64,000 bases of DNA from the human T2T-CHM13v2.0 reference genome, Homo sapiens, in NCBI RefSeq assembly GCF_009914755.1, contig NC_060947.1; one strand, 5' to 3'. How positions within the stretch are numbered: the stretch's first letter is position 1; each line of letters opens with the position of its first letter. The notes under the pieces are model-generated. The model was not told the origin of the DNA, did no database searches, and worked only from the letters and a program-made list of their open reading frames with translations. The position numbers and the translations under genes were made by a program. Below are positions 36,376 through 39,500 of the stretch, in pieces.

Positions 36376-36595
36376 GTTTCTCACTGCAGCCAGAGCTCCA
36401 GGTCTCATCTTCACTGCTCTGTGTCTTCTGCTCCTAGAGGTCTAGCCTCTGCGACCCTGTGACCTGCAGGACTGTAGACTTTCAGGGATGTGGCCATAGA
36501 ATTCTCTCTGGAGGAGTGGCAAAGCCTGGATGCTGCTCAGCAGAATGTGTATAGGGATGCCATGTTAAAGAACTACAGAAACCTTATCTCTCTAA
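36376..36595 (+). pseudogene. Processed fragment of a ZNF91-subfamily KRAB zinc-finger mRNA (exon-1 5'UTR joined to KRAB-A exon)
   Basis: 36376-36470 ctcactgcagccagagctccaggtctcatcttcactgctctgtgtcttctgctcctagagg...ccctgtgacctgcagg matches the recalled ZNF91-family 5'UTR; 36469-36594 translates [41 protein letters not shown], a KRAB-A box; no intron between them. Confidence 0.9.
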
Positions 36596-39500
36596 GTCTC
36601 TCCAAAATGGCTGACTAGACACAGCAAGGAGGAACATTGGCCACTAAGAGACTGGAACATCAGGAAAACTGGCACACTCTTAGCAGATTTTCAGAGGGAA
36701 AATGGAGCAAATGGAGGAGCACATAATGCACAATGTGCATTATGAGCAAATGGAGGGAAGACACAAATGCTGGACTGAAGTGGGAGAAAGCTGGAAATGC
36801 TGCACGGGGCTACTGTGCACAGGGCCTCATGCCTGGCCCCAAACAACTCTTGCGGAAGGGGAGAGTTGAACAGGCAAGGAGAAACCTACTCTTGCCACAG
36901 GCCTCGAGAATCCTGGCAGAACCCTTGACCACCACAGACACTTGAGTTGGCAGGGAGAGTTGGTTAGAGAAATGATAGGGGCAGAACTCCAGCCAGTGCA
37001 AAAGTCCAGAGTGTTCGATGCCAGAGCGTCTGCAGTAGAGCACATCCAGAGATGCCCATCCGACTAGGCTCAACTTTCTCCCATAGCAGACTTCAGCCCT
37101 AGGGGAACTATTGGTCCTGAATTCTGCAGGGCATTCTTGCCCATGAGATGGTGCCAGTCTAACATGAGCACACGTCGGACTGCTGGCCTCTGTTGGGGCA
37201 CAAGCCTGGCCATGTCTGCCTACAGTGTAGCCCCCAAGACCCTGCTGGGATCCTAGATTATAGCTCCTCCACTGGTGGACTGTGCCTGACTGGCAGAGTG
37301 CTCCAGCAAAGTGGCCTCTGCAGACATGCACCAGCCCACCACTGCCCTTCCCCTACTGCAGCCTCCCCTGTGCTACCTTACCTGAATGTGCTTACCCACA
37401 GTCACCCCCCACATCACTTTGCCAGCAAGTGTGTGCACAGTTGGACCTTGCCTTCCCTTCCCTGACAGTGTGCATGTGCATATGCACCTTGCCGTGCCAC
37501 TGTTGCCAGAGTGGTTGCACCCTGTACCCCCTTCCTGGCCACACCATCATTGTCATCTGAAGCCTTCCAGCCTTGCCCCTGCCAGAGCCCTGCCCTGTGC
37601 CAACACTACCTCCACTGAGAAACAAGGCACAGAGAACAATGGATCCTCCCTCATCCTAAGTGGCCACTGCTGCCTGCATGAATGAGCACAGAGGGTGCAC
37701 ACAGTCCTATGCCCACCAGCACCCTGCTCCCATGCTAACACCACCACTAATGTGAATGCATGCACAATCACCAGCGAAAATCACCTGCCTCCCCAAGCTG
37801 TGCTGCCACTGCTACTGCTGCAAATGCCCACATGGAGGTCAGCAACCAAGCACCCACTAGCACCCTGCAAGAGCCAAGGAGCATGCACCCTGTCACATTG
37901 CTGCTGCTGCTGACACATACAAACAAGGATGAATTCCACTGCCACTGCCTTATGGATTGCTTTGGCTGGCACCACCCATTGGAGTGTCGTGACCAACAGT
38001 CCAGGAGCAAATTGGCCCCTCCAGTGCAGCAGGTTCCTACTCTCGAGGAGCCAGAGAACAAAGCTGGGGTCTGGTATCAGTCTGACAGAGTTAGAACATG
38101 CAGTCCAGGAGTTCTGAGCTGAGCATTGGCCCCCTAAAATGTTCCAGAAAGAAGCCAATCGACTGAGTCCATGAAATACTGCAATCAAACCCCCAAGGTC
38201 ATCAAATAAGATACAAGAAAAAATACTCATCCAAAGGAGAGCAGCTTCAATGATTGAAGCACCATTAGCTCACAAAGATGACAAAGAACCACTGCAAGAA
38301 CCCTGACAACTCAAAAAGCCAGAGTGATTTCTTTCCTCTAAACTGTCACAGTAATTCGCTAGCAAGGGTTCTTAACCAGGCCAAAGGTTCTTAACTAGGC
38401 TGAGATAGCTGAAATGACAGGAGTAGAATTAAGAATATGGGTAGGAATGAAGATCATTCAGATGCAGGAGAACATTGAAGCTCAATCCAAGGAAGCTAAG
38501 AATTACAATAAAATGATATAGGAACTAACACACAAAATAGCCAGTATAGAAAAGAATGTAACTGACCTGATAGAGCTTAAAAACACACTACAAAAATTTG
38601 ATAATGCAATTGCAAGCATTAACAGCAGAATAGACCAAACTGAGGAAAAAATCTCAGAGTTTGAAGTCTAGCTTTCTGAAGTAAAACAGTTGAACAAGAA
38701 TAAAGAATGAAGATTAAAAAGGAATAAGCAAAACTGCCAAGAATTATGGGATTATGTAAAGAGACCAAATCTGTGACTCATTGATGGCCCCGAAAGAGAT
38801 GGGGAGAAAGGAAGCAATTTGGAAAACATATTTCAGGATATCATCCATGAGAACATCCCCAACCTAGCTAGCCAGGGCAACATTCATATAAGAAAATGCA
38901 GAGAACCCCTACAAGATATTTCCCAAGAAGATAATCCCCAAGACATATAATCATCAGATTTTCCAAGGTCAAAATAAAAAAATAAAGGCAGCTAGAGAGA
39001 AAGGACAGATGACCTACAAAGCGAAGTCCATCAGACTAACACAGATCTCTCAGCAGAAACCCTACAAGCCAGAAGAGACCGGGGACTAATATACAACATT
39101 CTTAATGAAAAGAAATTCCAACCAAGAATTTCATATCTGGCCAAACCAAGCTTCATAAGTGAGGGAGAAATAAGATCCTTTTCAGACAAGCAAATGCTGA
39201 GGGAATTCATTACCACCAGACCTGCCTTACAAAAGCTCCTGCAAGAAGCACTAATTATGGAAAGAAAAGGGTACTATCAGCCGCTACAAAAGCACACTTA
39301 AGCACACAGACCAGTAATATTATAGAGCAACCACACAAAAAGTCTTCAAAATAATCAACTAATGACATGATGACAGGATCAAACCCACACATATCACTAC
39401 TAACCTTGAAGGTAAACATGCTATATGCCCCAATTAAAAGGCACAGAGTGGCAAGCTGGATAAACAATCGAGACCCAATGGTATACTGTCTTCAAGAGAA

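What the first reader, a model, noticed from the sequence alone, without database searches (positions are those of the whole stretch)
36376..36700. Spliced KRAB-ZNF mRNA fused to the 5' end of a near full-length L1: an L1 carrying a piece of its repressor family
Seen: ZNF91-family 5'UTR, then with no intron exactly 42 codons + 1 nt (127 nt, the canonical KRAB-A exon length; 36469-36595), then within ~6 nt the L1 5' terminus (ccaaaatggctgactag), all on the same strand. Known: ZNF91/ZNF93-type KZNFs repress SVA and L1, and L1 5' transductions arise from upstream promoters. Inference: a source L1PA13-15 lay in the intron after the KRAB-A exon of a KZNF gene, was transcribed from the KZNF promoter, spliced exon-to-L1 and retrotransposed. 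RT template switching is the alternative, but it would not be expected to end at the exon boundary. Sibling copies would define a KZNF-promoter-driven L1 lineage.
Basis: partly seen in the sequence, partly recalled or inferred. Interest (0 to 1): 0.82.

Follow-up and report, generated by a model that had tools for sequence, protein, structure and literature searches.

The report
KRAB zinc-finger exons fused to L1
An old, full-length L1 jumping gene on the human X chromosome carries at its front end the spliced first exons of a KRAB zinc-finger gene, one more example of a recently described way in which L1 picks up pieces of host genes.

Summary
Window 36374-36469 is exon 1 of a ZNF91-type KRAB zinc-finger gene, cut at an upstream alternative donor. 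36470-36595 is the KRAB-A exon (Pfam KRAB, E=1e-20), with no intron between. One to seven bases later an old L1 begins at its true 5' end and runs about 6.2 kb.

The splice is real, and no zinc-finger remainder lies anywhere in the window. The most likely origin is therefore one chimeric RNA that was retrotransposed as a unit.

Not shown: target-site duplications are not recognisable, no source L1 was found, and no sibling with this junction was found. The junction is ambiguous: the bases after the exon read GT, as an unspliced intron would.

The kind is published. Law and Burns (Cell Genomics 2026) list 17 such chimeras, including a ZNF681 exon 1::L1 on chr3, but not this one.

A census here found 12 dispersed copies of this exon 1. 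Six are fused to L1: chrX, chr6 (clear target-site duplication), chr4, chr3 (the published one), chr17 and chr3:109.6 Mb. This recurrence is not discussed in that paper.

Verdict: new member of a known kind, moderate interest.

The parts
36374..36469 (+). KZNF (ZNF91-type, chr19p12/chr7q11.21 family) exon 1, short form. It runs from the transcript start to the upstream alternative donor (CTGCAG|gt). The ATG-bearing 53 nt of the long form are absent.
   Evidence: 29 of 29 paralogous exon-1 loci begin matching at 36373-36384, and 28 of 29 end at 36467-36470; a genomic copy shows GT directly after CTGCAG; a 27-nt core motif occurs 52 times in the genome against 0 for the reversed control.
36470..36595 (+). 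KRAB-A exon relic (126-127 nt), joined to exon 1 with no intron. It has a stop codon at its third codon and no ATG upstream.
   Evidence: Pfam KRAB, E=1e-20; translation [11 protein letters not shown]..; gap-free alignment to 29 copies whose exon ends ..CTGG|gtgagg; the window reads ..CTAA|gtctct; 83-90% identity.
36596..36601 (+). Junction bases gtctct. They may be the first bases of the KZNF intron, untemplated bases, or partly the L1's own 5' end.
   Evidence: exon alignment ends at 36595. L1 similarity starts at 36600-36603, and two copies (c7, c4) share CTGCTC before CAAGATGG.
36602..42809 (+). Old L1, complete at its 5' end. 5' UTR to about 38600; ORF1 relic 38630-39295; ORF2 relics 39361-40847, 41115-42322 and 42352-42576. 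ORF2 residues of about 903-1193 are deleted. The 3' end is at about 42789, followed by a decayed A-rich tail to 42809.
   Evidence: Tnp_22_dsRBD, Exo_endo_phos (below cut-off) and RVT_1; tblastn map against the ORFs of the window's younger L1; 3' end sequence; 5' end matches ten relatives.
40848..41114 (+). Later insertion inside the L1: a short 3'-terminal L1 fragment. It is not part of the chimera.
   Evidence: ORF2 map breaks at residues 500/504; 81.6% identity to an L1 3' end over 40844-41098.
42811..43580 (+). Context: an older, 5'-truncated L1 (from ORF2 residue of about 38) directly behind the chimera's tail. It resumes at 49758 and ends at about 52350.
43581..49730 (-). Context: a younger, nearly full-length L1PA on the minus strand, inserted into the older L1.
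   Evidence: ORFs; 3' end at 43582 and 5' end at about 49730.

Best explanation
The block 36374-42809 is a single retrotransposed copy of one chimeric RNA. That RNA started at the promoter of a ZNF91-type KRAB zinc-finger gene and had intron 1 removed through an upstream alternative donor. It ran through the KRAB-A exon and continued straight into a full-length L1, ending at the L1's own polyadenylation site.

The most likely way this RNA formed is in cis. An L1 allele had inserted in sense orientation at or within a few bases of the KRAB-A splice donor of a KZNF gene. This disabled the donor, so transcripts from the KZNF promoter read (or spliced) into the L1. The L1 proteins made from that RNA then copied it to chrX. 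In other words, a 5' transduction with splicing of the upstream intron.

Shown: the spliced KZNF 5' part, the complete L1 5' end beside it, and the absence of the rest of the KZNF mRNA.
Inferred: that it was a single event, and that it arose in cis.

The insert is now inert. The KRAB-A relic has no start codon and an early stop, and both L1 reading frames are broken.
For: - Intron 1 is removed exactly at a GT carried by all genomic paralogs and joined to the KRAB-A exon.
- The L1 starts at its family's 5' terminus in the window, matching 10 of 10 relatives.
- No C2H2 finger or linker array occurs in any of six frames of the 64 kb, so the L1 did not simply split a full processed pseudogene.
- The same architecture recurs. 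Of 12 dispersed loci carrying this exon 1 (52 motif hits, 38 in the chr19/chr7 clusters, 14 dispersed, which merge to 12 loci), six are fused to L1 in sense orientation.
- On chr6, a 16-17-nt target-site duplication encloses exon 1 plus 78 nt of an intron-1 exon plus a 6.4-kb L1.
- The chr3 case is published with a 16-nt duplication (Table S5 of PMC13174262).
- In the chr6 case the natural acceptor of the intron-1 exon is used, and the L1 follows 78 nt later where four of four genomic copies continue differently. This is what an L1 inserted inside the gene predicts.
- All the full-length cases join the L1 within about 250 nt of the KZNF transcript start.
- The 5' boundary reads TT|AAGAATG.., which fits the L1 endonuclease site (weak).
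Against: - No target-site duplication is recognisable at the chrX locus. The best local match between the 40 nt upstream and the 100 nt after the tail is 6 nt, equalled in 869 of 1000 shuffles.
- No source L1 next to a KRAB-A exon was found. Only the window itself covers the junction among scored hits (40 of 362 candidates scored; 40 of 497). None of the best L1 relatives lies in the KZNF clusters.
- In 57 genomic KZNF loci (exon plus or minus 1.5 kb), no sense L1 lies downstream of the exon; 7 antisense pieces do.
- Law and Burns report that 15 of 17 parent genes hold no intronic L1, and they favour RNA recombination in trans.
- An L1 that is complete to its first bases is also what template switching at the RNA's 5' end predicts.
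Confidence: 0.5

Rival explanations
1. Recombination in trans between two RNAs. An ordinary capped L1 RNA was reverse transcribed to its very 5' end at the chrX target. The reverse transcriptase then switched to a partly spliced KZNF pre-mRNA near the KRAB-A donor, or the two RNAs had been joined beforehand by trans-splicing or ligation. It then copied that RNA to its 5' end. No L1 ever sat in the KZNF gene.
For: - The L1 is complete to within a few bases of its terminus.
- Up to 7 unassigned bases sit at the junction, starting with G or GT. This is as expected from cap copying, untemplated addition or an unspliced intron start.
- No source locus was found for the chrX or the chr6 chimera.
- Law and Burns favour trans-splicing or template switching for this class, and found no intronic L1 in 15 of 17 parent genes.
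Against: - Switching at random along a KZNF mRNA of several kb should mostly give long 5' parts that include the finger exon. In the four full-length cases the joins lie within about 250 nt of the transcript start.
- L1 RNA that starts at its own promoter has no upstream acceptor for trans-splicing.
- The intron after KRAB-A is short, about 0.5-0.9 kb in 13 of 23 loci examined (the other 10 showed no KRAB-B motif within 1.5 kb). The published cases have long downstream introns, median 48 kb.
- KZNF mRNAs are not abundant RNAs, yet six fusions exist. This count comes from a search aimed at KZNF exon 1, so it is biased.
Confidence: 0.33
2. Two separate events. A 5' fragment of a KZNF retrocopy was already at this site, and an L1 later inserted at its 3' edge. 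Alternatively, an L1 inserted into a full retrocopy whose remainder was later deleted.
For: - No target-site duplication encloses both parts, so a single event is not proven here.
- The region is a pile-up of nested L1 insertions.
Against: - The L1 would have to land within 7 nt of an exon-exon boundary by chance.
- No KRAB-B or finger remainder lies anywhere in the window.
- The 12-16 nt before the L1 are not repeated after its tail.
- The same juxtaposition at five other loci, two of them with enclosing duplications, makes coincidence unlikely.
Confidence: 0.1

Closest known systems
mRNA/lncRNA 5'-exon::L1 chimeric insertions ('5' transduction events'), Law and Burns, Cell Genomics 2026 (PMC13174262; preprint 10.1101/2025.02.02.635956). 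Read here: abstract, results section 24 of the preprint, passages of the published text, and the whole of Table S5 (mmc5.xlsx).
   Same: First exon or exons of a gene, spliced, in sense orientation, directly 5' of a mostly full-length L1. Six of the 17 end exactly at splice donors, and several L1s start within the first ten bases with no acceptor. Short untemplated bases occur at some junctions. Parent genes mostly lack an intronic L1. One listed case is ZNF681 exon 1 fused to an L1 with the same type of 5' UTR as here (hg38 chr3:94441985-94449213, which is T2T chr3:97.14 Mb).
   Different: The chrX locus, and the chr6, chr4, chr17 and chr3:109.6 Mb loci, are not in that table of 17. No enclosing target-site duplication could be shown here. 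The downstream intron is short. The published text has no occurrence of 'ZNF', so the recurrence of KZNF exon 1 is not discussed there.
RAP1GDS1/L1PA2 promoter co-option (same paper; passages read)
   Same: An intronic L1 is transcribed from the host gene's promoter, spliced to upstream exons and retrotransposed. This is the cis model proposed here.
   Different: In that case the source L1 still exists in intron 2, with a cryptic acceptor 15 bp upstream, and two offspring copies are known. Here no source and no sibling were found.
Classical L1 5' transduction from an upstream promoter
   Same: Host sequence upstream of an L1 is carried along because transcription started upstream.
   Different: It is reported as extremely rare, with none found among the primate insertions screened in PMC4862182 (passages read). 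Classical cases carry contiguous flanking DNA. Here the flank is spliced.
SVA-F1 / MAST2 exon trapping
   Same: A first exon of a host gene is spliced onto the 5' end of a retrotransposon and mobilised with it.
   Different: That chimera founded a subfamily of many copies. Here no second copy with the same junction exists among scored hits.
U6/L1 and other template-switch or RNA-ligation chimeras (seen only in search listings: PMC6789731, PMC4476161)
   Same: Two RNAs are copied into one insertion.
   Different: In those chimeras the 5' partner is a small RNA and the L1 part is usually 5'-truncated. Here the partner is a spliced mRNA 5' end and the L1 is full-length.

Membership tests
mRNA 5'-exon::L1 chimeric insertion (Law and Burns class) | Non-L1 sequence directly 5' of an L1, on the same strand, that maps to the first exon or exons of a gene with introns removed | tested here: met
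   exon 1 (short form) is joined to the KRAB-A exon at genomic GT/AG positions; the L1 starts 1-7 nt later.
mRNA 5'-exon::L1 chimeric insertion (Law and Burns class) | L1 part near full-length | tested here: met
   the 5' terminus matches 10 of 10 relatives. ORF1 and ORF2 relics and the 3' end are present. Total length is about 6.2 kb, including a 267-nt later insert and an internal deletion.
mRNA 5'-exon::L1 chimeric insertion (Law and Burns class) | [quoted passage not shown] | tested here: inconclusive
   no duplication above chance; a decayed A-rich tail at 42780-42809. TT|AAGA at the 5' side, which is weak. The element is old and abuts another L1.
mRNA 5'-exon::L1 chimeric insertion (Law and Burns class) | Both parts arrive on the same branch in multi-species alignments | not testable with these tools
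   No other primate genome is held.
Cis 5' transduction / promoter co-option (RAP1GDS1 type) | A source L1 in sense orientation inside the parent gene, downstream of the captured exons | tested here: not met
   only the window covers the junction (40 of 362 and 40 of 497 candidates scored); 0 of 57 KZNF loci have a sense L1 within 1.5 kb downstream of the exon. A lost or never-fixed allele is not excluded.
Retrotransposon lineage founded by exon capture (SVA-F1 type) | Several copies sharing the same exon-element junction | tested here: not met
   no second copy. The five other KZNF::L1 fusions have different junctions and different L1 types.
Processed pseudogene interrupted by an L1 | The rest of the mRNA (KRAB-B, fingers, poly(A)) lies beyond the L1, and the L1 has its own duplication made of pseudogene sequence | tested here: not met
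   no finger array in six frames of 64 kb; no repeat of the exon end after the L1 tail.
KRAB domain (Pfam PF01352) | Sequence match above the curated cut-off | tested here: met
   73.5 bits against 20.4. It is a relic only: a stop at codon 3 and no start codon.

The most novel reading that the evidence does not exclude
First exons of the ZNF91-type KRAB zinc-finger genes are a recurrent hot spot for fusion with L1. At least six independent fusions, spread over tens of millions of years and several L1 subfamilies, may exist for two reasons. These gene clusters keep receiving L1 insertions, and their promoters fire in the germline and early embryo, when new L1 copies become heritable. If so, L1s whose own promoter is silenced could repeatedly have escaped by riding the promoter of the repressor gene family itself. 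The KZNF clusters would then be the best place to catch a source allele and settle whether such chimeras form in cis or in trans.
Probability: 0.2. Interest if true: 0.7.

Novelty: new member of a known kind. Interest (0 to 1): 0.42.

Why it matters
By itself the chrX element is a dead relic and one more case of a class catalogued in 2026. Its value is as evidence.

First, it shows that a screen built on unique sequences missed chimeras from multi-copy gene families. Four or five KZNF cases were found here, against one in the published list.

Second, one gene family supplies a quarter or more of all known cases.

Third, this family offers a tractable test of the open question, cis read-through or splicing against RNA recombination in trans. 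The chr19p12 and chr7q11 clusters are now fully assembled in several primates.

The class also bears on how L1 lineages acquired new 5' ends during primate evolution.

Tried and rejected
- Target-site duplication at chrX. blastn-short of the 5' flank against the window and local alignment with shuffles gave nothing above chance. Candidates seen by eye (AAGAATGTATAT.. against AAGAAAGAGTAG.., 8 of 14) were judged unconvincing.
- The older L1 behind the chimera was mapped in the hope that its own duplication would bracket the insert. It is too decayed.
- A pattern search for the chr6 duplication genome-wide was useless. The motif lies in a repeat (about 6600 hits) and the list was cut. Reading the L1's 3' end directly solved it.
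- chr4: the 27 nt between exon 1 and the L1 are unique in the genome at up to 3 mismatches, so no source was found. They resemble the 3' flank by eye; both flanks look by eye like parts of one older L1 reading frame. Whether chr4 is one event or two stays open. The 5' and 3' flanks share 13 of 16 bases, counted by eye.
- The reading that the window's ..tctctaag is the start of the KRAB-B exon was rejected. It needs an 18-nt deletion plus an insertion, whereas the gap-free KRAB-A alignment needs four substitutions.
The best relatives are only 69-81% identical over the 5' UTR.
- Literature searches for a described KZNF exon 1/L1 recurrence found none. 'ZNF' occurs 0 times in the main text of the Law and Burns preprint and paper. 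The PDF supplements of that paper could not be read and may hold relevant figures (S7, S8).
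Full report
**What is in the sequence**

The window is human chrX (T2T), and its genome can be searched.

Bases 36374/36376-36469 match the first exon of a large paralogous gene family on chr19:19.9-24.3 Mb and chr7:57-66 Mb at 81-91% identity (40 of 60 candidates scored). The query was then widened to 36200-36700. 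All 29 exon-1 loci begin to match at 36373-36384, and 28 of 29 stop at 36467-36470. The 29th is a processed pseudogene on chr12 that continues into KRAB-A. Similarity therefore starts where the transcripts start, not in the promoter.

It ends at CTGCAG. In a genomic copy this is followed by GTATTGGG.., and only 53 nt later by the start codon and the usual donor..AGAAATG|gtgag. So the window uses an upstream alternative donor and skips the ATG segment.

Next comes the KRAB-A exon with no intron between, at 36470-36595. Pfam KRAB scores E=1e-20. It aligns without gaps to 29 copies at 83-90% identity. The frame has TAG at its third codon. One G at the exon 1/KRAB-A join is shared or lost, so the exon counts 126 or 127 nt.

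**The junction with the L1**

Ten related L1 copies, fetched from the best genome hits, all lose similarity upstream of (G/C)CAAGATGGC..ACTAGA. The window's ..ctccaaaatggctgactaga is therefore a complete L1 5' end, starting between 36597 and 36603.

The KRAB-A alignment ends at 36595. The genomic copies read ..CTGG|gtgagg and the window reads ..CTAA|gtctct. The junction is thus within 1-7 nt of the exon end, but it is not clean:
- The last two exon bases differ from all 29 paralogs.
- The next two are GT, as at the start of the intron.
- tctctc may belong to the L1. Two relatives carry CTGCTC before CAAGATGG.
- An alternative reading with one inserted base gives ..CTAAG|TCTCTCC.., a precise exon-to-L1 join.

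The data do not decide between these readings.

**The L1 and its surroundings**

- ORF1 relics lie at 38630-39295. ORF2 relics lie at 39361-40847, 41115-42322 and 42352-42576. About 290 codons are deleted.
- A 267-nt L1 3' fragment was inserted later at 40848-41114.
- The element ends at about 42789 with a decayed A-rich tail to 42809.
- It is followed at once by an older, 5'-truncated L1 at 42811-43580, which resumes at 49758 and runs to about 52350. That older L1 is itself split by a younger minus-strand L1PA at 43581-49730.
- No zinc-finger array or linker motif cluster exists in any frame of the 64 kb. The rest of the KZNF mRNA is therefore not on the far side of the L1.
- No target-site duplication could be found.

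**Siblings and source**

Only the window itself matches across the junction (40 of 362 candidates scored; 40 of 497 scored). The best L1 relatives are 69-81% identical and none lies in the KZNF clusters. In 57 genomic KZNF loci (exon plus or minus 1.5 kb), seven carry antisense L1 pieces downstream of the exon and none carries a sense piece.

The intron after KRAB-A is about 0.5-0.9 kb in 13 of 23 loci. The other 10 showed no KRAB-B motif within 1.5 kb.

**The same kind of fusion elsewhere**

The closest match to the window's exon 1 (91%) is on chr6. There the long form of exon 1 is followed by 78 nt and then by a complete L1PA 5' end. The 78 nt match 21 other places, 19 of them in the chr19/chr7 clusters, 1-2 kb downstream of exon 1. 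In four of four genomic copies examined, they start right after ..cctttag and continue differently where chr6 turns into L1. A duplication (AAAAATTTTGCAAACTG at the 5' side, AAAATTTTTCAAACTG at the 3' side) encloses the whole 6.4-kb unit. The interior of that L1 was not read.

A 27-nt core motif of exon 1 occurs 52 times in the genome (reversed control 0). Of these, 38 lie in the clusters and 14 are dispersed, which merge to 12 loci. Reading them gave this breakdown.

Six loci fused to sense L1:
- chrX, the window.
- chr6:25.07 Mb.
- chr4:155.45 Mb: exon 1 to its donor, then 27 nt, then a complete 5' end shared by more than 35 copies. The flanks match at 13 of 16 bases by eye.
- chr3:97.14 Mb.
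- chr17:5.09 Mb: exon 1 to its donor, then about 7 nt, then the last 235 nt of an L1. The flanks match at 10 of 11 bases by eye.
- chr3:109.57 Mb: about 112-145 nt after exon 1, L1 5' UTR sequence begins, at 72% identity over 135 nt. This one is probable only.

Four ordinary processed pseudogenes:
- chr2/chr22 duplicates (the chr2:110.78 Mb copy was not read).
- chrX:65.8 Mb.
- chr9.
- chr12.

One locus is unclear (chr3:51.2 Mb). One is a genomic duplicate with its intron retained (chr16).

**What is known**

L1 5' transductions are described as extremely rare (PMC4862182, passages).

Law and Burns (Cell Genomics 2026, PMC13174262; preprint results section, passages of the paper, and all of Table S5 read) catalogue 17 human L1 insertions with mRNA or lncRNA 5' exons at the L1's 5' end:
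- 15 are in sense orientation.
- Most involve a near full-length L1.
- Six end exactly at splice donors.
- Several L1s start in their first ten bases with no acceptor.
- 15 of the 17 parent genes have no intronic L1.
- The authors discuss cis-splicing, trans-splicing and template switching.

Their table holds ZNF681 exon 1::L1 at hg38 chr3:94.44 Mb, which is the chr3:97.14 Mb locus found here. It does not hold the chrX, chr6, chr4, chr17 or chr3:109.6 Mb loci. 'ZNF' does not occur in their main text. Three further literature searches found no description of a KZNF recurrence.

**Interpretation**

A single chimeric RNA, retrotransposed as a unit, is the best reading. It is supported by:
- the exact splice in the 5' part;
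- the complete L1 end within 7 nt;
- the missing mRNA remainder;
- the recurrence elsewhere, with enclosing duplications at two loci.

For how the RNA formed, I favour a cis origin. An L1 allele would have sat at the KRAB-A donor of a KZNF gene, been read from the KZNF promoter, and since been lost. I put this at about 0.5 including the single-event step.

The reasons for favouring cis are:
- All four full-length KZNF cases join the L1 within about 250 nt of the transcript start.
- The chr6 case looks like an L1 sitting inside an intron-1 exon.
- The downstream intron here is short.

Recombination in trans (template switching or trans-splicing) remains a strong rival at about 0.33. No source is found, the L1 is complete to its end, and unassigned bases sit at the join. 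Two independent insertions get about 0.1.

**Verdict**

This is a new member of a known kind. The added point of interest is the recurrence in one gene family. The census that found it was aimed at that family, so the excess still needs a controlled count.

Noticed in passing
L032 (T2T chr6:25072571-25079240, + strand) and L097: KZNF exon 1 (long form), then 78 nt of an intron-1 exon, then a full-length L1PA. The unit is enclosed by a 16-17-nt target-site duplication. It is not in the published table of 17 chimeras.
   Followed up: yes
L096 and L098 (T2T chr4:155446489-155452214, minus strand): KZNF exon 1 ending at its donor, then 27 unique bases, then the complete 5' end of an L1 with an L1PB-like 3' end. 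By eye it appears to be inserted in an older L1. By eye the 27 bases resemble the sequence after the tail, so whether this was one event or two is unclear.
   Followed up: partly
L099 (T2T chr17:5086755-5087255): KZNF exon 1 ending at its donor, followed within about 7 nt by only the last ~235 nt of an L1, between two Alus. The flanks match at 10 of 11 bases by eye.
   Followed up: partly
L104 (T2T chr3:109573007-109573507): A divergent KZNF-type exon 1, followed after about 112-145 nt by L1PA 5' UTR sequence that corresponds to an internal position of about 630. This is near the published L1 splice acceptor.
   Followed up: partly
L095 (T2T chr3:154124914-154125379, minus strand): A 66-nt copy of the KZNF intron-1 exon, starting exactly at its acceptor boundary, directly behind the body of an Alu. 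It may be another RNA-level chimera.
   Followed up: no
L101 (T2T chrX:65801905-65802405): A KZNF processed pseudogene that carries an extra exon of about 75 nt between exon 1 and KRAB-A. This shows further alternative 5' exons in this family.
   Followed up: no
window 40848-41114: A short 3'-terminal L1 fragment inserted in sense orientation inside the old L1's ORF2.
   Followed up: partly
window 43581-49730 (minus strand): A nearly full-length, younger L1PA with long open stretches (up to 508 codons), nested in an older L1.
   Followed up: partly
window 36205-36290: A run of AGT/AGC triplets inside a SINE-like flank just upstream of the chimera. It gives long poly-Ser/poly-Leu pseudo-ORFs on both strands.
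   Followed up: no
L033-L060 and L002-L030 (57 KZNF loci on chr19 and chr7): All seven L1 pieces found within 1.5 kb downstream of exon 1 or KRAB-A are antisense to the gene. None is sense.
   Followed up: partly
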